64,000 nt of DNA, taken from assembly GCA_028726625.1 (NCBI GenBank), contig JAQYPT010000048.1, forward strand, positions 47,853-111,852, in the 5' to 3' direction. The notes beneath the pieces were generated by a model, which was not told the DNA's origin, did no database searches, and saw only the letters and a program-made list of their open reading frames with translations. This stretch comes from Prevotellaceae bacterium. GTDB lineage: Bacteria; Bacteroidota; Bacteroidia; Bacteroidales; Bacteroidaceae. The position numbers and the translations under genes are program-made. Shown in pieces: positions 2,498 to 63,572 of the stretch (within the stretch, counting starts at the first letter, position 1; each line of letters opens with the position of its first letter).

Positions 2498-4687
2498 TTA
2501 CCTGATGAACATCAGTTCGCGGTATTTGGGTAACGTCCAAAGCTCGTCGCTGACGATCAGTTCGAGTTTATCTATATGATAGCGTATGGTTTCTATCTTT
2601 GGTTCAACGTTGTCATGGTAGGCGATGGCCTTCTCTCTCTCGTTCTCTATCTTGTTGGCAACCTTGCGCGCATTGATCAATTCTTCCACTCCTGTTTCGA
2701 TGATCTTTGTACGCTCAGCAATCTCCAGAATAATCTTTTTGTTGCGACAGGTCAGCTTTTCCGCTTCCTCACGGTCAAAAATCTCGAACATACGCGCCAC
2801 GTTGTTGGCCAATTGACTTTGATAATAGGTCGCAACTGGAATGATATGGTTCATCGTAAGATCACCCATAACGCGTGCTTCAATCTGTATTTTCTTGGTA
2901 TACATTTCCCATTTCACCTCATTGCGCGCCACCAACTCGCTCCGTGTCATCACCCCTGTGCTTTCAAACATCTTGATGCTGTCTTCGTCAAGATAACGGT
3001 CAAAGATGACTGGACAACTGTTTTCACAGTCCAGACCACGTCGCTTAGCTTCTTCCACCCATTCTTCACTGTACCCATTGCCATCAAAATGGATGGGCTT
3101 GCATGTCTTAATATCCTCACGAAGGACATCAATGATTGCCGATGTTTGGTCTTCACCTTGCTCAATCAGCGCATCCACGCGCTTCTTGAAGTTAGTCAAA
3201 GCCTCCGCCATGGCCGCATTGAGCACCAGCATGGAACAGGCACAGTTGGCTTCTGAGCCTACGGCGCGGAACTCAAAGCGATTACCTGTGAAGGCAAACG
3301 GACTGGTTCTGTTGCGGTCTGTATTGTCTATGAACAGCTCAGGAATCTCTGGAATGTCCAACATCATCCCCTGTTTACCGTGCAAGGTGAACAAGTCTTC
3401 TTTGTCAGCCACCTCAATATGGTTCAACAACTCAGTGAGTTGCGTACCCAAGAACGATGAAATGATGGCGGGTGGTGCCTCGTTTGCACCCAATCGATGG
3501 GCGTTGGTGGCACTCATGATGGATGCCTTGAGCAGTCCGTTGTGTTTGTATACACTCATCAACGTTTCCACCAAGAACACTACGAAGCGCAAGTTGTCCT
3601 CGGCTGTCTTGCCTGGTGCATGCAGCAACACGCCCGTATCGGTGCACAAGCTCCAGTTGTTGTGCTTGCCACTGCCGTTCACTCCGGCAAAAGGTTTCTC
3701 GTGTAACAGCACACGAAAACCATGTCTACGTGCCACACGTTTCATCAGTGACATGAGCAACATATTGTGATCGATGGCCAAGTTGCACTCCTCGAAGATG
3801 GGAGCCAACTCAAATTGGTTGGGTGCCACCTCGTTGTGACGGGTCTTACACGGTATACCAAGCTCGAGAGCCTGTATCTCCAAGTCTTTCATGAACGCCT
3901 GCACACGATCTGGAATGGTACCCAAATAATGGTCATCCATTTGCTGATTCTTGGCAGAATCATGCCCCATGAGCGTACGACCCGTTAACATCAGGTCGGG
4001 ACGCGCATGGTATAAATCCTCGTCTACCAGGAAATATTCCTGTTCCCAGCCCAAATTGGCCCGCACTTTCTTCACGTTAGGATCGAAATAGCGACAAACT
4101 TGCGTTGCTGCCACATCCACTGCATGGAGCGAACGCAGCAGAGGAGCCTTGTAATCAAGGGCCTCACCCGTATACGATATGAAGATAGTAGGAATACAAA
4201 GCGTATCATCAATGATGAAAACTGGTGACGTTGGATCCCAAGCCGAATAGCCTCGCGCCTCAAAAGTGTTGCGAATGCCTCCGTTGGGAAACGAAGATGA
4301 GTCGGCTTCTTGCTGAACTAACAACTTTCCACTAAACTCTTCAATCATGCCACCCTTACCGTCAAACTCCACAAAGGCGTCATGTTTCTCGGCAGTTCCT
4401 TCCGTCAAAGGCTGAAACCAGTGCGTATAATGGGTCACACCGTTTTCCTGTGCCCAGTGTTTCATACCCGTTGCCACGGCATCTGCAATGGAACGATTGA
4501 AATGGGCACCATTGTCAATCACATCAGTGAGTTGCTGGAACACGTCTTCCGGCAGGTATTTTTGCATTTTTGCACGGTTAAAGACGTATTTACCAAAGTA
4601 CTCTGAAGGCCTTTCCTTAGGAGCCTTCACAGCCAATGGGGCTTTTTTTGAAGCCTCAATAACTGCTTTAAATCTGAAATTTTCCAT
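2498..4687 (-). CDS. glnA: Glutamine synthetase type III
   Basis: 729 aa with GSIII motifs THYTHWFQPLT, HNEVAPNQFE, NGSGKHNNWS, DRNRTSPFAFTGNRFEFR. Confidence 0.95.
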   Translation of the reverse strand: MENFRFKAVIEASKKAPLAVKAPKERPSEYFGKYVFNRAKMQKYLPEDVFQQLTDVIDNGAHFNRSIADAVATGMKHWAQENGVTHYTHWFQPLTEGTAEKHDAFVEFDGKGGMIEEFSGKLLVQQEADSSSFPNGGIRNTFEARGYSAWDPTSPVFIIDDTLCIPTIFISYTGEALDYKAPLLRSLHAVDVAATQVCRYFDPNVKKVRANLGWEQEYFLVDEDLYHARPDLMLTGRTLMGHDSAKNQQMDDHYLGTIPDRVQAFMKDLEIQALELGIPCKTRHNEVAPNQFELAPIFEECNLAIDHNMLLMSLMKRVARRHGFRVLLHEKPFAGVNGSGKHNNWSLCTDTGVLLHAPGKTAEDNLRFVVFLVETLMSVYKHNGLLKASIMSATNAHRLGANEAPPAIISSFLGTQLTELLNHIEVADKEDLFTLHGKQGMMLDIPEIPELFIDNTDRNRTSPFAFTGNRFEFRAVGSEANCACSMLVLNAAMAEALTNFKKRVDALIEQGEDQTSAIIDVLREDIKTCKPIHFDGNGYSEEWVEEAKRRGLDCENSCPVIFDRYLDEDSIKMFESTGVMTRSELVARNEVKWEMYTKKIQIEARVMGDLTMNHIIPVATYYQSQLANNVARMFEIFDREEAEKLTCRNKKIILEIAERTKIIETGVEELINARKVANKIENEREKAIAYHDNVEPKIETIRYHIDKLELIVSDELWTLPKYRELMFIR

Positions 4688-14118: not shown

Positions 14119-16134
14119 ATGAAAACAACGATAGTATCTGTCCTTTTTCTCATCATGGGTTGCTTGCAAGGCTTGTCCCAAATAGGTTCTTGGAAAGTAT
14201 ATCCTGCCTATCACGACATAACGGACGTGCAACCGGCAGGTAACATCGTATATGTGTTGGCGTCGGGTGGATTATTTTGCTATGATAAAAATGACAACAG
14301 CATACAAACTTTTGATAAGAAAACAGGCTTGAATGATGTTGAAATAAGCCACATTGCTTATAGTTCTGCGGCAAAAAGATTGATTATTGTCTACAAAAAC
14401 AACAACATTGACTTGCTGGATGGTAAGGGAAATGTTACCAATATCGCTGACTATTATAAAAAATCGCTGACAGAAGACAAAACCATTCACAGCATCTATG
14501 TGAATGGAATCTATGCTTATTTGTCTACAGGATTTGGTATTGTCAAGCTCAATGTGAGTGATGCCGAAATTAGTGATACTTATTTTCTGGGTTTTCGCGT
14601 AGATTGGACATTTATACAGCAAAACAAAATCATTGCAGCATCAATGACCCATGGAAAATATGCTGCTGATTTGTCTACTAATTTACTTGACAAAAAGAAT
14701 TGGAAAAGAATAGGAAACTATTCTGAAAACAACAAAGAAGTAGACAAAGAACTATGGAATAAAATGGAAAGCATGCGTCCGGAAGGTCCGCAATACAACC
14801 ATTTTTATTTTCTAAAGTTTGTCAATAACCGCCTTTATACTTCGGGAGGAGGCTTTGAAGCAGAAGGTGTTAGCCTCTCACATCCAGGCATTATCCAAGT
14901 ACTTGACAATGGCCAATGGCACATCTATCAAGACGATATCCAAAAAACAACAGGCTATTCGTATGCAGATATCAATTGTTTAGCCATCGACCCTAAAGAT
15001 ATAAACCACGTTTTTGCAGGAGGAAGAACCGGAGTTTACGAATTTCAAAACGGTAAACTCACCAAATATTACAATAAAGACAACAGTATTCTGATGCCAG
15101 CAGTGGATAAAGGAAAAGAACTGGATAATGAATATGTTCCCATCAACGGCCTGCTGTTCGATGAAGAGCGTCATCTTTGGATATTAAATAACCAAACAAA
15201 GGGACAAAGCATCATCGAATTACTGCCAGATGGAACCATGAAATCACACCATCAACCATCGCTGATGCAAAATGGAGTGAGCCCCAGTTTGCTCTATCAT
15301 CCCATGTTTGACAGTCGAGGCTTATTGTGGTTCGGCAACGGGAACTACAAGTTTCCGGCACTGTTTTGTTATGATAGGAAGACTGAAACGCTGCACACGA
15401 TAACCAATTTCATCAACCAAGATGGAAACAGTCTAAGAACAACAGCAGTAAAATATATCGCTGAAGATATGGAGAACAATCTTTGGATTGGTACAAACAC
15501 AGGAGTATTGCTGCTTGAAGCTTCAAAAATGAATCAACTACCCGATGTTACTTTCACACAAATAAAGATTCCTCGCAATGACGGAACTAACTTAGCTGAC
15601 TATTTATTGGCAGGAGTAGACATTACCTGCATTGCAGTTGACAAGAGTAACCGCAAATGGTTTGGCACAGGAAGTAATGGAGTATATCTCATCAGTGCTG
15701 ATAACAACCAGCAAATTCATCATTTTACCATAGCAAACAGCGTATTACCTTCTAACCATATAGAAAGCATTGCCATCAATAATCAAACAGGAGAAGTGTT
15801 TTTTGGGACAGACAAAGGACTTTGTTCTTTTCAAAGTGACGCCACCGAGGCAGTGGAATCAATGAACAAAGACGTTACCTACGCATACCCAAATCCAGTA
15901 GAACCCTCTTACAATGGCCCTATAACGGTTGTCGGACTCAGCTATCAAGCCGACATCAAAATAGTAACTGTCAATGGCACCTTAGTGACTAAAGGCAAAA
16001 GCAATGGCGGAACTTTCGTGTGGGATGGTAACGATATGAATGGTAACCCGGTGGCATCGGGCATCTATATGGTACAAACTGCCGACCAAACTGGCAACAA
16101 AGGAACTGTATGCAAAATCGCTATCGTCAGATAA
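14119..16134 (+). CDS. porZ: PorZ-like beta-propeller protein with C-terminal Ig/T9SS-type domain
   Basis: Signal peptide, propeller repeats (IAVDKSNRKWFGT, LWIGT), 'GEVFFGTDKGLCSF', and C-terminal 'AYPNPV...WDG.DMNG.PVASGIY'. Confidence 0.75.
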   Translation: MKTTIVSVLFLIMGCLQGLSQIGSWKVYPAYHDITDVQPAGNIVYVLASGGLFCYDKNDNSIQTFDKKTGLNDVEISHIAYSSAAKRLIIVYKNNNIDLLDGKGNVTNIADYYKKSLTEDKTIHSIYVNGIYAYLSTGFGIVKLNVSDAEISDTYFLGFRVDWTFIQQNKIIAASMTHGKYAADLSTNLLDKKNWKRIGNYSENNKEVDKELWNKMESMRPEGPQYNHFYFLKFVNNRLYTSGGGFEAEGVSLSHPGIIQVLDNGQWHIYQDDIQKTTGYSYADINCLAIDPKDINHVFAGGRTGVYEFQNGKLTKYYNKDNSILMPAVDKGKELDNEYVPINGLLFDEERHLWILNNQTKGQSIIELLPDGTMKSHHQPSLMQNGVSPSLLYHPMFDSRGLLWFGNGNYKFPALFCYDRKTETLHTITNFINQDGNSLRTTAVKYIAEDMENNLWIGTNTGVLLLEASKMNQLPDVTFTQIKIPRNDGTNLADYLLAGVDITCIAVDKSNRKWFGTGSNGVYLISADNNQQIHHFTIANSVLPSNHIESIAINNQTGEVFFGTDKGLCSFQSDATEAVESMNKDVTYAYPNPVEPSYNGPITVVGLSYQADIKIVTVNGTLVTKGKSNGGTFVWDGNDMNGNPVASGIYMVQTADQTGNKGTVCKIAIVR

Positions 16135-33011: not shown

Positions 33012-33057
33012 TTGACGAGTAGACAAGTTAACAAGTTGACAAGTTAATAGTTAATGG
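33012..33057 (+). repeat. Octamer tandem array TTGACRAG (half element)
   Basis: TTGACGAG TAGACAAG TTAACAAG TTGACAAG TTAATAG TTAATGG, starting 5 nt after the TBDR stop. Confidence 0.85.
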
Positions 33058-56529: not shown

Positions 56530-58509
56530 ATGACACAAATAAATTCAAAAATACCTGAAGGACCAGTAGCTGAGAAGTGGACCAATTACAAGGCTCACCA
56601 GCGTTTGGTTAACCCAAAGAATAAATTAAAATTGGATGTCATCGTTGTTGGTACAGGCTTAGCAGGTGCCAGTGCCGCCGCTTCATTGGGCGAGATGGGG
56701 TTCAATGTATTCAACTTTTGTATTCAAGACTCGCCTCGTCGTGCACACTCTATTGCTGCACAAGGAGGTATCAATGCTGCCAAGGATTATCAGAATGACG
56801 GTGACTCTGTTTATCGTTTGTTCTATGATACCGTAAAAGGTGGCGACTATCGTGCTCGTGAAGCTAACGTTTACCGTTTGGCAGAGGTGTCGAATGCTAT
56901 CATCGACCAATGTGTTGCACAAGGCGTACCATTCGCTCGTGAATACGGAGGCATGCTCGCCAACCGTTCATTTGGCGGTGCACAGGTAAGTAGAACATTC
57001 TATGCCAAAGGTCAAACAGGTCAGCAGCTGCTCCTGGGCGCTTACTCATCACTGATGTGTCAAGTACATGCAGGCAAAGTAAAGCTCTATACGCGTTACG
57101 AGATGGAGGACGTAGTCATCATTGACGGTCGTGCTCGTGGTATCATTGCTAAGAATTTGGTGACTGGTAAGTTAGAGCGATTCTCTGCCAATGCCGTAGT
57201 AATCGCCACTGGCGGATACGGAAATACTTATTTCCTTTCTACCAATGCAATGGGATGTAACTGTACCGCTGCCGTTCAGTGCTACCGTAAGGGTGCTTAT
57301 TTTGCTAACCCTTCGTATGTACAGATTCACCCCACCTGTATTCCTGTACATGGTGACAAGCAGTCTAAACTGACGCTGATGTCAGAATCGTTGCGTAACG
57401 ACGGACGTATTTGGGTTCCTAAGAAGATAGAAGATGCCAAGGCATTACAGGCAGGAACGAAACAAGGCTGGGAAATACCAGAGGAGGATCGCGACTACTA
57501 CTTGGAGCGTCGCTATCCAGCATTTGGTAACTTAGTGCCTCGTGATGTGGCTTCGCGTGCTGCGAAGGAGCGTTGCGATAAGGGCTTTGGTGTGAACAAC
57601 ACTGGTTTGGCAGTGTTCCTTGACTTCTCTGAGTCTATCAACCGATTGGGACTTGATGAAATCATGCAGCGTTATGGAAACCTCTTCGAGATGTATGAAG
57701 AGATTACAGACGTATTCCCTGGTGACATGGCGAACGAAATCAATGGCGAAAAGTACTACAAACCCATGATGATCTTCCCCGCTATCCATTATACCATGGG
57801 TGGAATCTGGGTAGATTATGAGTTGATGACCTCTGTCGCAGGACTGTTTGCCATCGGTGAATGCAACTTCTCTGATCACGGTGCTAACCGCTTGGGAGCT
57901 TCAGCGTTGATGCAAGGTTTGGCAGATGGTTACTTCGTGTTGCCATACACCATTCAAAATTATTTGGCAGACCAAGCTGTTTGGCCACGTCTTTCTACCG
58001 ATCTTCCTGAGTTTGAAGAGGCAGAAAAGAAGGTACAAGCAGAGATTGACCGTTTGATGAACATCAAGGGTAAGCGCTCTGTCGACTCTATTCACAAAGA
58101 GTTGGGTCACATCATGTGGGAACACGTGGGAATGGGTCGTACCAAGGAAGGTCTTGAAGAAGGCTTGAAGATGATAGCAGACTTGCGTAAAGAGTTCGAT
58201 ACCAACCTGTTTATCCCAGGTTCTAAAGAAGGTCTGAACGTTGAGTTGGATAAAGCTATCCATTTGCGTGATTTCTTATTGATGGGCGAACTCGTTGCCT
58301 ATGATGCCATCTCTCGTAATGAGAGTTGTGGAGGTCACTTCCGTGAGGAGTATCAAACACCCGAGGGAGAGGCAAAACGCGACGACGAAAACTATTTCTA
58401 TGTAGGTTGTTGGAAGTACCAAAACAATGATGAAACCGCCCCCGAGCTGCTCAAAGAGCCACTCGAGTACGAGGCCATCAAGGTACAGACACGTAATTAT
58501 AAGAATTAA
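56530..58509 (+). CDS. sdhA: Succinate dehydrogenase/fumarate reductase flavoprotein subunit
   Basis: [41 protein letters not shown]. Confidence 0.95.
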
Positions 58510-58510
58510 A

Positions 58511-58550
58511 TTGATGAGTTGACGAGTTAACAAGCTGACGAGTAGACAAG
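58511..58550 (+). repeat. Left octamer array of four-helix-bundle element
   Basis: TTGATGAG TTGACGAG TTAACAAG CTGACGAG TAGACAAG, starting 1 nt after the sdhA stop. Confidence 0.88.
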
Positions 58551-58605
58551 ATGATAGTGAATTCGTGAGGTTCTTCTCATAGCTAATATGTAATCCGAAT
58601 TGGAT

Positions 58606-58965
58606 ATGAAATCTACGCACAAAGACTTGATTGTTTGGCAAAAGAGCATCATTCTTGTGAAAAGGATTTATCAAGTAACGAGATGTTTTCCATATGAAGA
58701 ACTCATGGGAATCTCCTCTCAAATGCGTAGAGCTGCAATTTCAATACCTTCAAACATAGCTGAAGGTTATGGAAGAGGAACGACAAAAGAGTTGTTACAT
58801 TTCTTATATATAGCCTTGGGTTCAGCTTCTGAATTGGATACTCAAATTATTCTCTGTAAAGAGTTGGGCTTTATCATTGATTTGGAGGCTTACCAAGAAC
58901 TCTATCAATTAAATATAGAAGTCTTAAAAATGCTAACAGCACTCATTAAAAGTCAACAACAATAG
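58606..58965 (+). CDS. Four helix bundle protein (23S rRNA intervening-sequence protein / Avd-like)
   Basis: HKDLIVWQKS, FPYEE, SQMRRAAISIPSNIAEG.GR, FLYIALGSASELDTQ. Confidence 0.92.
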   Translation: MKSTHKDLIVWQKSIILVKRIYQVTRCFPYEELMGISSQMRRAAISIPSNIAEGYGRGTTKELLHFLYIALGSASELDTQIILCKELGFIIDLEAYQELYQLNIEVLKMLTALIKSQQQ

Positions 58966-59039
58966 ACAAAATATTCATAAAATCGTTGTATTTAAAATAT
59001 ATAGCAATCTATAAATTTGTTGTAACTATTGAAAAAAGT

Positions 59040-59080
59040 CTATTAACTTGTAAACTTGTCAACTCGTAAACTCGTAAACT
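59040..59080 (-). repeat. Right (inverted) octamer array of four-helix-bundle element
   Basis: CTATTAA CTTGTAAA CTTGTCAA CTCGTAAA CTCGTAAA CT, which is the reverse complement of TT(G/T)ACRAG units. It ends 15 nt before the sdhB ATG. Confidence 0.88.
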
Positions 59081-59095
59081 AAAAAAATACAAGCC

Positions 59096-59854
59096 ATGTC
59101 AAAAAATATAAGTTTTACAATTAAATTTTGGCGTCAGAACGGTCCTAAAGACAAGGGACATTTTGACACTCACGAGATGAAGAATATCCCAGACGATACT
59201 TCTTTCCTCGAAATGCTTGACATCCTCAACGAGGAACTCATAGAGGATGGGAAGGAACCATTTGTTTTCGATCACGACTGTCGTGAAGGTATCTGCGGTA
59301 TGTGCTCACTTTATATCAATGGTGTGCCACACGGAAAGACCGAACGAGGTGCAACTACCTGCCAGTTGTACATGCGTCGTTTCAACGATGGCGATGTTAT
59401 TACCGTAGAACCTTGGCGTTCAGCAGGCTTCCCTGTCATCAAGGATTGTATGGTAGACCGTAACGCTTTCGACAAAATCATCGCTGCCGGTGGCTACAAT
59501 ACCATTCGTACAGGACAGGCACAGGATGCCAATTCCATCCTTATTCCAAAGGAGAAGGCCGATGAGGCCATGGACTGTGCTTCCTGCATTGGTTGTGGTG
59601 CCTGCGTAGCAGCTTGTAAAAACGGCTCTGCCATGCTCTTTGTGAGCTCCAAGGTTAGCCAGCTGGCCCTGTTGCCACAAGGCCGTCCAGAGGCTGCCAA
59701 GCGTGCCAAGGCCATGGTTCTCAAGATGGATGAATTAGGATTTGGTAACTGTACCAACACTCGTTCATGTGAAGCCGTATGTCCAAAGAACGAGTCGATT
59801 GCTAATATCGCACGACTGAACCGTGAATACATCACGGCAAAGTTTAAAGATTAA
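59096..59854 (+). CDS. sdhB: Succinate dehydrogenase/fumarate reductase iron-sulfur subunit
   Basis: DCREGICGMC, CIGCGACVAAC, CTNTRSCEAVCP. Confidence 0.95.
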   Translation: MSKNISFTIKFWRQNGPKDKGHFDTHEMKNIPDDTSFLEMLDILNEELIEDGKEPFVFDHDCREGICGMCSLYINGVPHGKTERGATTCQLYMRRFNDGDVITVEPWRSAGFPVIKDCMVDRNAFDKIIAAGGYNTIRTGQAQDANSILIPKEKADEAMDCASCIGCGACVAACKNGSAMLFVSSKVSQLALLPQGRPEAAKRAKAMVLKMDELGFGNCTNTRSCEAVCPKNESIANIARLNREYITAKFKD

Positions 59855-63354: not shown

Positions 63355-63572
63355 TTTACGAGTTTACAAGTTTACGAGTTGACAAGTTGATAGTTTTGTT
63401 GTTGGAGTATTTCATGATCATTCCTCTTACAAGCCATTAACTCGTGAACTTGTGAACTCGTTAACTCGTCAACTATCCATAGTTGTTTTGTTGGACTATT
63501 TCACGTTCGTTCCTATAGCAAGCCATTAACTTGTCAACTCGTTAACTCGTAAACTTGTCAACTTATCAACTA
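63355..63572 (-). repeat. Gene-less octamer-array element between aroQ and O-methyltransferase
   Basis: Three arrays of TT(G/A/T/C)ACRAG units, two in sense and one inverted, separated by two ~50-nt spacers similar to each other. Confidence 0.88.

What the first reader, a model, noticed from the sequence alone, without database searches (positions are those of the whole stretch)
58511..59080. Four-helix-bundle (IVS/Avd-like) gene bracketed by inverted octamer arrays inside the sdhAB junction: a candidate intervening sequence of mRNA
Seen: one base after the sdhA stop come five 8-bp units (TTGATGAG TTGACGAG TTAACAAG CTGACGAG TAGACAAG), then a 119-aa four-helix-bundle gene in an AT-rich stretch. 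After it come inverted units (CTTGTAAA CTTGTCAA CTCGTAAA CTCGTAAA), ending 15 nt before the sdhB ATG. The two arrays could pair as a ~40-bp imperfect RNA stem that loops out the ORF. Because the period is 8, their stop codons fall in all three frames (TGA 58512, TGA 58520, TAA 58528). Known: this protein family was first found in 23S rRNA intervening sequences, which RNase III excises through a terminal stem, and it is homologous to the RNA-binding Avd of diversity-generating retroelements. Inference: this is a selfish or mobile cassette that inserts just after stop codons in operons, keeps the downstream translation start intact, and may be processed out or folded away at RNA level. The same arrays recur twice more in the window without the gene, like non-autonomous derivatives.
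Basis: partly seen in the sequence, partly recalled or inferred. Interest (0 to 1): 0.85.

Follow-up and report, generated by a model that had tools for sequence, protein, structure and literature searches.

The report
Swappable four-helix-bundle gene cassette with octamer arms
A 586-bp insert lies between the two fumarate-reductase genes of this Prevotella: a small, conserved gene of unknown function bracketed by mirror-image runs of the 8-base word TTNACRAG. The same packaging surrounds this gene family in many phyla, and it ties the gene to unexplained short tandem repeats scattered through bacterial genomes.

Summary
The order is sdhA stop (58507-58509), five sense octamers (58511-58550), a 119-aa PF05635/TIGR02436 gene (58606-58965), four inverted octamers (59047-59078), then the sdhB ATG (59096).

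It is an insertion: most same-genus genomes have 3-30 nt between sdhA and sdhB. A near relative (G075) has 93-99% identical flanks, but a different cassette (51-66% identity) fills exactly the space between stop and start.

Of 72 relatives of the gene across phyla, 63 have 7- or 8-nt arrays within 250 nt. Thirty-one sit in this same sdhA|sdhB gap across Bacteroidota, with at least four different words.

The word type follows the protein tree perfectly and the host tree poorly. It also predicts which word is scattered gene-less through the genome (121 Prevotella genomes; Fisher p about 1e-4 to 6e-8, not corrected for phylogeny).

The arms are predicted to pair in RNA (z = -4.5). However, the word is what is conserved, not the pairing: there is no covariation and no G·U bias.

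Best reading: an intervening-sequence (IVS)-type cassette whose protein recognises its own word arrays, in a relationship like that of REPIN repeats and their RAYT transposase.

The parts
56530..58509 (+). sdhA/frdA flavoprotein subunit (659 aa). Its native stop TAA is at 58507-58509.
   Evidence: PF00890 and PF02910. The C-terminus ...TRNYKN* is conserved in relatives that lack the insert.
58511..58550 (+). Left arm: five sense units of the word TTNACRAG, starting 1 nt after the sdhA stop.
   Evidence: It is identical in the close relative G109.
58551..58557 (+). Inner boundary motif ATGATAG. The genome-wide form is TTGATAG after sense arrays, with its complement CTATCAA before antisense arrays.
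   Evidence: Listing of all 38 array loci.
58606..58965 (+). Four-helix-bundle gene (119 aa; PF05635 / TIGR02436, the '23S rRNA IVS protein' family).
   Evidence: It is under purifying selection: dN/dS is 0.13 against G109 and 0.04-0.07 within other cassette types.
58966..59039 (+). AT-rich 3' spacer of the cassette. It contains TAAATTTG (59012-59019), which fits the Bacteroidota -7 promoter motif TAnnTTTG.
   Evidence: Sequence. The motif assignment rests on my own knowledge and was not tested. Other cassettes at this site have a much shorter spacer.
59040..59078 (+). Right arm: inner boundary CTATTAA followed by four antisense units (CTYGTNAA) at 59047-59078.
   Evidence: The substitutions against G109 fall at the variable positions of the word, as read from the G109 right arm listed.
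59079..59095 (+). Outer boundary and leader CTAAAAAAATACAAGCC ahead of the sdhB ATG.
   Evidence: The motif CTAAAAA follows antisense arrays genome-wide, with the ATG 7-24 nt further on. The tail ...ACAAG.C-ATG resembles the native spacer of empty sites, e.g. G020.
59096..59854 (+). sdhB/frdB iron-sulfur subunit (252 aa).
   Evidence: PF13085 and 4Fe-4S domains.
33012..33043 (+). Solo sense array (4 units), 5 nt after the stop of the upstream + strand gene.
   Evidence: It is conserved in place in G109 and G075.
63355..63569 (-). Gene-less element between two minus-strand genes. Two sense arrays (63530-63569 and 63441-63472, read on the minus strand) are separated by about 50-nt spacers that form an 89-bp tandem duplication. 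One antisense array (63355-63386) ends 14 nt before the next start codon.
   Evidence: G109 and G075 carry it with one 89-bp unit fewer. The array-free genomes G020, G010, G022 and G015 have a short gap instead.

Best explanation
Window 58510-59095 is one copy of a cassette type found across bacterial phyla. The cassette is a roughly 120-aa four-helix-bundle gene (PF05635/TIGR02436, the family of the ORFs in 23S rRNA intervening sequences). It is enclosed by two opposed arrays of a lineage-specific 7-9-nt word, here TTNACRAG.

Shown:
- It is an insert that fills exactly the gap between the sdhA stop and the sdhB start.
- It is absent, swapped for another cassette type, or reduced to a stub at this same spot in close relatives.
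- The protein is under purifying selection.
- Word type is inherited with the protein lineage, not with the host.
- Genomes with a given cassette type carry many gene-less arrays of the same word.
- Six of the eight word positions are nearly invariant, while the other two vary freely and do not covary between arms.
- Arrays have a fixed polarity in transcripts: sense after stop codons, antisense before start codons.

Inferred:
- The cassette has no promoter requirement of its own and is co-transcribed with the operon.
- In RNA the arms zip into a long imperfect hairpin that sets the gene apart from its neighbours, as in rRNA IVSs, where RNase III cuts the stem.
- The word is the recognition unit of the encoded protein, which is probably a pentamer. 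The protein would bind its arrays and help maintain or spread them.

On this reading the gene-bearing copy relates to the gene-less arrays roughly as a RAYT gene relates to its REPIN repeats.
For: Insertion and turnover:
- Empty sdhA|sdhB junctions of 3-30 nt occur in most same-genus genomes.
- G000 against G075: flanks are 93-99% identical, identity drops to 51-66% exactly from the stop to the ATG, and the two carry different cassette types, A and D.
- L032 (occupied) against G001 (95-96% identical flanks): G001 keeps only the stub TTAGTTGAC|AACTTAAAAAG.

Generality:
- 63 of 72 relatives across phyla have period-7 or period-8 arrays within 250 nt. Density is 2.65 per kb near the gene against 0.26 per kb farther away.
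- 45 have flanking inverted repeats with z >= 5.
- All four PF05635-like genes of this genome sit next to arrays, with periods 7, 8, 9 and 9.

Gene and word travel together:
- On the 4HB protein tree the word type needs 7 changes, which is the minimum (0 of 200 shuffles as low).
- On the SdhAB host tree it needs 20 changes (minimum 8).

Genome-level co-occurrence in 121 Prevotella genomes:
- At least 16 type-A array hits occur in 8 of 9 genomes with an A or D cassette, 0 of 10 with a B or C cassette, and 7 of 100 with none (Fisher 6e-8 and 1e-4).
- At least 25 type-C hits occur in 3 of 5 genomes with a type-C cassette against 1 of 116 others.

Word rather than stem:
- Among 245 units, positions 1, 2, 4, 5, 7 and 8 are 96-99% invariant. 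Positions 3 and 6 are nearly free.
- 56 of 59 arrays are distinct, and there is no covariation between arms.

Other support:
- Protein function: dN/dS is 0.04-0.13.
- Oligomer: the PDB relatives 2GSC and 2RLD are each deposited with five chains.
- RNA hairpin: the minimum-free-energy fold pairs the arms, z = -4.46.
- Polarity: 19 of 21 and 16 of 17.
- The Coxiella IVS has a 28-bp terminal stem cut by RNase III and tandem heptamers upstream of its ORF (PMC4990558).
Against:
- Only 1 of 38 type-A array loci in this genome carries the gene.
- Seven array-rich genomes have no A or D cassette. One of them, G017, is 99% complete.
- G005 has a type-C cassette but only 3 type-C array hits.
- G073 and G075 are rich in type-A arrays but carry type D. 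The words are related (TTNNNRAG), which rescues the association only at superfamily level.
- The co-occurrence tests are not corrected for phylogeny.
- A four-helix bundle has no known nuclease or recombinase chemistry, so the spreading step lacks an enzyme.
- For the Coxiella IVS the authors concluded that the protein is probably not made in vivo (PMC4990558).
- The absence of a G·U bias does not favour an RNA-stem role.
Confidence: 0.55

Rival explanations
1. Pure IVS-of-mRNA reading. The arms matter only as a double-stranded RNA stem that RNase III cuts, so a selfish ORF can ride in any transcript. The protein has nothing to do with the repeats.
For: The predicted terminal stem loops out the ORF. 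The protein family and the terminal-stem layout match the 23S rRNA IVSs that RNase III excises (PMC4990558). The insert sits in a conserved central-metabolism operon that is presumably well expressed.
Against: The arms do not covary at their variable positions, and mismatches show no sense-strand G·U excess. A stem does not need periodic words or 6 of 8 invariant positions. It does not explain solo arms with fixed polarity. It does not explain why the dispersed word matches the resident cassette type.
Confidence: 0.2
2. The arrays are host cis-elements of mRNAs, such as G-poor unstructured leaders before start codons or 3' stabilisers after stop codons. The four-helix-bundle gene is merely a passenger that tends to lodge in such hairpins.
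For: There is strict transcript polarity, and antisense arrays end 7-24 nt before ATGs. Of 38 loci, 37 lack the gene. Arrays persist in genomes without a cassette. A translational role was proposed for TAACTGA heptamers just upstream of start codons (PMC4679880).
Against: Ninety of 121 same-genus genomes have no type-A array at all, so this is not a general host requirement. Word type tracks the protein clade perfectly. The gene-array association holds across phyla with unrelated words.
Confidence: 0.13
3. The gene is an old resident accessory gene of the fumarate reductase operon, for example an assembly or regulatory factor. It is inherited vertically and often lost, and the repeats are incidental.
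For: Thirty-one of the 72 closest relatives sit in the same sdhA|sdhB gap, in Bacteroidales and Flavobacteriales. Purifying selection is strong.
Against: Only about 20 of 121 Prevotella genomes carry it at this junction. Cassette type is nearly random on the host tree and is swapped between genomes with 95% identical flanks. Sister lineages of the gene occupy other operon junctions with other words. The family also sits in rRNA in other bacteria.
Confidence: 0.05

Closest known systems
ORF-bearing intervening sequences of 23S rRNA (Coxiella burnetii helix-45 IVS with 'S23p'; Leptospira)
   Same: Same protein family (PF05635). The ORF sits in the loop of a long terminal stem formed by inverted ends, inside a highly transcribed host RNA. 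Distribution among relatives is sporadic, at a conserved insertion site. The Coxiella IVS also has tandem heptamers (GACAGAT) before the ORF, with copy-number differences between strains (PMC4990558).
   Different: The host here is an mRNA intercistronic gap, not rRNA. The arms are arrays of an 8-nt word rather than a near-perfect 28-bp stem. Many gene-less copies of the word arrays are scattered through the genome. RNase III excision is shown for the rRNA IVS and is untested here.
REPIN-RAYT systems (REP sequences and their RAYT transposase; own knowledge, not searched here)
   Same: A single-copy gene is flanked by inverted copies of the same short repeat that is dispersed gene-less through intergenic regions. 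Each gene lineage has its own repeat type. The gene is held at a fixed chromosomal site. Repeats outlast loss of the gene.
   Different: RAYT is an HUH/Y1 single-strand DNA transposase with known chemistry. The gene here is a four-helix bundle with no known catalytic motif. The repeats here are tandem word arrays, not single palindromic REPs.
Dispersed heptamer tandem repeats: TAACTGA repeats of Beggiatoaceae, Cyanobacteria and Bacteroidetes (MacGregor 2015, PMC4679880); cyanobacterial STRR heptamers (own knowledge)
   Same: These are short tandem words of 2-6 or more copies in intergenic DNA. Most lie a few nucleotides upstream of start codons in one orientation, and some lie in reverse orientation just after stop codons. 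Their phylogenetic distribution is patchy.
   Different: That paper names no associated gene. It proposes S1, Csp or CsrA as binders and does not mention four-helix-bundle proteins (0 occurrences). The period here is 8, and the arrays come as opposed pairs around a gene.
Avd, the accessory protein of diversity-generating retroelements
   Same: A homologous small four-helix-bundle protein that forms a pentamer. In DGRs it works with nucleic acid (RT and RNA).
   Different: No DGR component was noticed around the gene. Only the ORFs of 54-62 kb were listed, and no RT, TR or VR search was run. The bAvd model scores 21.8 bits against a cut-off of 40.

Membership tests
PF05635 / TIGR02436 four-helix-bundle ('23S rRNA IVS protein') family | Full-length match to the family profile above its curated cut-off | tested here: met
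   PF05635 scores 129.4 bits against a cut-off of 33.8, covering 1-105 of 106 positions. TIGR02436 scores 131.7 bits against a cut-off of 24.
PF05635 / TIGR02436 four-helix-bundle ('23S rRNA IVS protein') family | Relative with a solved four-helix-bundle structure; pentameric assembly | tested here: inconclusive
   PDB 2GSC matches at E 1.9e-22 and 2RLD at 1.6e-4, each deposited with five chains. The oligomeric state of this protein was not modelled or measured.
23S rRNA intervening sequence (IVS) | Located inside a 23S rRNA helix (9, 25 or 45) | tested here: not met
   It lies between the sdhA stop and the sdhB start. There is no Rfam match in 58300-59300.
23S rRNA intervening sequence (IVS) | Complementary termini that form a long terminal stem | tested here: met
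   Arms of 41 nt are 78% complementary. The MFE and centroid folds pair them, z = -4.46. This is a prediction only.
23S rRNA intervening sequence (IVS) | Excised from the transcript by RNase III without re-ligation | not testable with these tools
Diversity-generating retroelement (Avd component) | Match to the bAvd profile; adjacent reverse transcriptase with a TR/VR pair | tested here: not met
   PF22296 scores 21.8 bits against a cut-off of 40. The neighbours are sdhA and sdhB. The window was not searched for an RT or a TR/VR pair.
Transposon / MITE | Terminal inverted repeats plus a target-site duplication, mobilised by a transposase | tested here: inconclusive
   Inverted ends are present. 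No duplication is visible when the occupied site is compared with empty sites. No transposase domain is present in the cassette.
REPIN-RAYT-type system | Gene flanked by inverted copies of the repeat that is dispersed gene-less in the same genome, with type-specific pairing | tested here: met
REPIN-RAYT-type system | Gene encodes an HUH/Y1 transposase | tested here: not met
   The only domains found are PF05635 and a weak bAvd match.
Dispersed heptamer/octamer tandem repeats (TAACTGA / STRR type) | Tandem 7-8-nt words, intergenic, oriented, ending a few nt before start codons | tested here: met
   There are 59 arrays, all intergenic. Nineteen of 21 start-proximal arrays are in one orientation, 7-40 nt from the ATG.

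The most novel reading that the evidence does not exclude
PF05635 four-helix-bundle proteins and the short-period (7-9 nt) tandem word arrays of bacterial intergenic DNA are two halves of one system. These arrays include the Prevotella octamers here, and probably TAACTGA- and STRR-type heptamers. Each protein lineage would recognise its own word. Its gene would live inside a hairpin made of that word at a fixed operon junction or in rRNA. Its presence would sustain a genome-wide population of gene-less arrays, which then shape the 5' and 3' untranslated regions of many genes. This would be a REPIN-RAYT-like partnership built on a non-enzymatic ring protein.
Probability: 0.35. Interest if true: 0.9.

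Novelty: new variant of a known kind. Interest (0 to 1): 0.75.

Why it matters
The IVS-protein family is large and present in many phyla, yet it has no assigned function. Separately, heptamer and octamer tandem repeats in bacterial intergenic regions have been catalogued for decades without a partner or mechanism.

This locus links the two, and it offers unusually clean natural controls:
- empty sites;
- an excision stub;
- a cassette-for-cassette swap between genomes whose flanks are 95% identical;
- four word types at one site;
- type-specific co-occurrence of the cassette with its dispersed arrays.

If the protein binds its word, that would define a new class of sequence-specific nucleic-acid-binding proteins with a readable code, in which the word changes with the protein clade. 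It would also give a mechanism for the spread of short repeats that sit directly in front of start codons. Finally, it would explain why the ORF is kept in rRNA intervening sequences.

Tried and rejected
- Rfam: no family matched 58300-59300 at E <= 1.
- Stem selection: I expected compensatory change between arms if the stem were the selected feature. I found none at the variable positions, and no strand-specific G·U excess.
- 'Stops in all three frames' as the purpose of the arrays: rejected as a general explanation. Other word types at the same site (e.g. AGGCACAG, GGGTTCGA in other phyla) carry no stops.
- Strict 'one cognate gene per array-rich genome': not upheld. G073 and G075 are rich in A arrays but carry D cassettes, and seven array-rich genomes have neither.
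- Import by homologous recombination through the flanks: same-type pairs are no more alike than different-type pairs in the 180 nt on each side of the cassette (0.744 v 0.742). The distal control in that script was ungapped and unreliable (60% identity), so the test is weak.
- Recent horizontal transfer between G000 and G109: rejected. The cassette and flanks are equally similar, 94-99%.
- Literature: six searches found no paper that links this gene family to tandem word arrays beyond the single-locus note on Coxiella heptamers.
- DGR membership: rejected.
Full report
**1. What is there.**
The window comes from a 2.7-Mb, 46% G+C genome. Its nearest named relative is an uncultured Prevotella.

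- At 56530-58509 lies the flavoprotein subunit of succinate dehydrogenase/fumarate reductase. At 59096-59854 lies the iron-sulfur subunit.
- One base after the sdhA stop come five units of an 8-nt word (58511-58550).
- A 119-aa gene follows at 58606-58965. It matches PF05635 (E 7.9e-38), TIGR02436 and the solved structure 2GSC (E 1.9e-22).
- Next come an AT-rich spacer and four inverted units (59047-59078). The sdhB ATG is 17 nt further on.
- The arms form a 41-nt, 78% complementary inverted repeat.

**2. Not chance, and not unique.**
A two-unit pattern has 21 matches in the window against 0.9 expected.

- The whole genome has 59 arrays of at least 3 units at 38 loci, against none in a shuffled genome. 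All are intergenic.
- Thirty-nine of the 59 arrays have exactly four units.
- They carry fixed boundary motifs: TTTTTAG-(TTNACRAG)n-TTGATAG, and the complement on the other arm.
- Eight loci are opposed pairs (hairpins) with loops of 14 to about 500 nt. Only the sdh locus holds a gene.
- Period 8 is over-represented among the genome's short tandem repeats: 105 arrays, against 26 for period 6 and 23 for period 10.

**3. It is an insertion, and the site turns over.**
In most same-genus genomes the sdhA stop and the sdhB ATG are 3-30 nt apart, with the same ...TRNYKN* C-terminus. Three comparisons are especially clean.

- (a) G075 has flanks 93-99% identical to the window right up to the stop codon and again from the ATG. 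Between those two points identity falls to 51-66%. There it carries a different cassette, with the word TTTTTRAG and a protein 55% identical.
- (b) L032 carries a type-A cassette. G001 has flanks 95-96% identical to L032 but keeps only TTAGTTGAC|AACTTAAAAAG, which is the outermost bits of the two arms.
- (c) G005 and G016 carry a third cassette at the same spot, with arms made of TAGTCGTT / AACGACTA.

G109, a close relative, has the same cassette as the window with equal similarity in cassette and flanks. That is ordinary vertical descent.

**4. The layout belongs to the gene family.**
I fetched 80 loci that encode relatives of the protein from named genomes. They span Bacteroidota, Planctomycetota, CPR groups, Nitrospirota, Acidobacteriota and others; 72 of them could be analysed.

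- Flanking inverted repeats well above shuffled controls are common: 45 loci have z >= 5.
- Sixty-three of the 72 have tandem arrays within 250 nt. These arrays have period 7 or 8 almost exclusively (48 and 45 of 98 rows).
- Array density near the gene is ten times that of the rest of each locus.
- The words differ between lineages, e.g. GTGAATA, AGGCACAG, GGGTTCAA, GGGACTT, GGCAATG.
- Within this genome, all four PF05635-like genes sit beside arrays: TTNACRAG (8), GTTCAAW (7), and two 9-mers. The heptamer and one 9-mer family are also dispersed elsewhere in the genome.

I reached this point before consulting earlier notes of this scan. Those notes report the same layout in many other genomes. 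They are leads, not independent evidence.

**5. One site, many cassette types.**
Thirty-one of the 72 loci have the gene in this same sdhA|sdhB gap. They come from Bacteroides, Prevotella, Phocaeicola, Paludibacter, Parabacteroides, Alloprevotella and three Flavobacteriales.

- In every case the arrays start 0-10 nt after the sdhA stop and end about 5-15 nt before the sdhB ATG.
- The word types are:
  - A: NNNACRAG, with a 7-nt derivative GTTACGA;
  - B: AGGTTNTN;
  - C: TAGTCGTT;
  - D: TTTNNRAG/TTTGAGTT;
  - two heptamers in Flavobacteriales.
- On a maximum-likelihood tree of the proteins, word type needs 7 changes, the minimum possible. None of 200 label shuffles is as low.
- On a tree of the flanking SdhA+SdhB sequences, including empty sites, it needs 20 changes (minimum 8, shuffled mean 25.7).

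So gene and arms travel as one unit, and that unit is gained, lost and exchanged at a fixed site. Proximal flanks of same-type pairs are no more alike than those of different-type pairs (a weak test). Other lineages of the gene occupy other fixed operon junctions in Prevotella with other words, e.g. GGAGTTAA.

**6. The cassette type predicts the scattered word.**
I scanned 121 same-genus genomes.

- Type-A arrays are bimodal: 90 genomes have none, and 15 have 16-151 hits.
- At least 16 type-A hits occur in:
  - 8 of 9 genomes with a canonical A or D cassette;
  - 0 of 10 with a B or C cassette;
  - 7 of 100 with none (Fisher 6e-8 against all others; 1e-4 against B/C).
- Type-C arrays give the same picture. 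The three richest complete genomes (51, 32 and 29 hits) all carry a type-C cassette, so 3 of 5 C-carriers reach 25 hits against 1 of 116 others.

There are caveats.
- These tests ignore phylogeny.
- G073 and G075 are rich in A arrays but carry D cassettes. The two words are related and occur mixed within single arrays, and G000 and G075 are near relatives that differ by a swap.
- G005 has a C cassette but few C arrays.
- Arrays persist in genomes that have lost the cassette, such as G001.

**7. Word or stem?**
Among 245 units, positions 1, 2, 4, 5, 7 and 8 are 96-99% invariant. Position 3 is G/T/C/A at 48/31/11/10%, and position 6 is A/G at 51/47%.

- Fifty-six of 59 arrays are distinct, so they are not fresh copies of one master.
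- Between G000 and G109 the right-arm substitutions fall at the variable positions, as read.
- In the eight hairpins the variable positions of opposite arms match no more often than random units do (0.56 v 0.64, p = 0.94).
- Across 45 cassettes, transition mismatches between arms are not biased towards G·U in the sense transcript (62 v 70).
- The RNA fold does pair the arms, with z = -4.46. That follows from two opposed arrays sharing six fixed positions.

What selection preserves is therefore the word, as expected for a recognition unit. Precise pairing is not preserved.

**8. Polarity.**
Arrays within 40 nt upstream of a start codon read CTYGTNAA in that mRNA in 19 of 21 cases. Arrays within 20 nt after a stop codon read TTNACRAG in 16 of 17 cases.

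- Of the 35 loci with a called gene on both sides, 31 lie between co-directional genes (counted).
- The upstream arm is C-poor across phyla (A 487, G 429, T 361, C 173).
- The elements therefore have a fixed orientation relative to transcription.
- This may reflect function in RNA. It may instead reflect a filter on what is tolerated before a Bacteroidota start codon.
- My ORF calls are crude, and the arrays contain stops, so some 'distance 0' values may be ORFs that run into an array. For sdhA the stop is the native one.

**9. The protein is in use.**
dN/dS is 0.13 between G000 and G109, and 0.04-0.07 within types B and C. The two PDB relatives are each deposited with five chains, in line with the pentameric Avd (own knowledge).

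**10. Mechanism, and how sure.**
*Shown:* a gene-plus-arms unit is inserted between stop and start. It is swappable and losable. Word, protein lineage and dispersed arrays are linked in a type-specific way. The word and the protein are both under constraint.

*Inferred:* the cassette is co-transcribed with the sdh operon. The arms form an RNA hairpin, and RNase III cuts it as in rRNA IVSs (PMC4990558). The protein binds its word arrays and helps maintain or spread them.

I put about 0.9 on the descriptive part and about 0.35-0.45 on the binding/spreading part. The stated overall confidence is 0.55. The enzyme for movement is unknown, and a four-helix bundle is unlikely to supply it.

**11. Comparison with the known.**
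- The closest known thing is the ORF-bearing 23S rRNA IVS. It shares the protein family and the terminal stem, and in Coxiella even tandem heptamers before the ORF. This element fails the defining location test, and its excision is untested.
- In behaviour it resembles REPIN-RAYT systems (own knowledge), but it lacks a transposase.
- The scattered arrays match the phenomenon described for TAACTGA heptamers (PMC4679880), a paper that names no associated gene.
- Six full-text searches found no description of the gene-array link. The library lacks most subscription journals, so prior description cannot be excluded.

**12. Verdict.**
The locus is a new variant of a known kind: an IVS-type element in an mRNA gap with word-array arms. 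It comes with natural controls that make the larger hypothesis directly testable.

Noticed in passing
window 59012-59019: TAAATTTG lies inside the cassette's unusually long AT-rich 3' spacer, 77 nt before the sdhB ATG. It fits the Bacteroidota -7 promoter motif TAnnTTTG (own knowledge). It could give sdhB a promoter of its own downstream of the insert. Other cassettes at this site have a much shorter spacer.
   Followed up: no
window 63390-63563: The gene-less element contains an 89-bp tandem duplication (spacer plus array; TRF score 243). G109 and G075 have one unit fewer at the same site, so the element changes length between near relatives.
   Followed up: partly
G000 C19:13868-14179 (outside the window): This is the second four-helix-bundle gene of the genome. 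It sits just upstream of an Obg-like gene and is flanked by arrays of the heptamer GTTCAAW. Here the arrays on both sides are in the same orientation, with an inverted set further upstream. The same heptamer occurs at 9 other loci.
   Followed up: partly
G000 C23:2799-3700 and C51:300-1200 (outside the window): Two longer PF05635-related genes (about 210-255 aa, four-helix bundle plus a C-terminal extension) sit beside 9-nt arrays: TAATNAGCC-like upstream in C23, and CCTAGNNNN-like downstream in C51.
   Followed up: partly
L013 (G014) 1355-1495; L005 (G015) junction: The same sdhA|sdhB gap holds other small hairpin inserts in two genomes. G014 has a 127-nt insert with CTTATGTCGAC...GTCGACATAA ends. 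G015 has a 38-nt gap with the palindrome GGTGCTGTGTCACAGCACC. The gap seems to attract hairpin-forming inserts generally.
   Followed up: no
G000 C24:1660-1700, 3430-3470, 15230-15270; C52:4840-4880 and others: A second dispersed repeat, the G+C-rich hairpin CCCCTCCCnnnnGGGAGGGG, often lies directly next to the octamer arrays, on their upstream side.
   Followed up: no
L116-L134 (several Prevotella genomes): Other lineages of the gene sit at other fixed operon junctions in several species, with words such as GGAGTTAA and GCAAGAAG. One junction precedes an ORF that starts MKILVLNCGSSSIKY, which is acetate-kinase-like by my own knowledge. Each lineage keeps to its own junction.
   Followed up: partly
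G045:C46:71040-71399; G132:C135:7085-7447: The tblastn matches to the type-B cassette genes at sdhA|sdhB in these two genomes were reported with in-frame stops (2 TAA; 1 TGA + 1 TAA). These may be decaying copies, or the match may have run past the gene end. The arms are intact.
   Followed up: no
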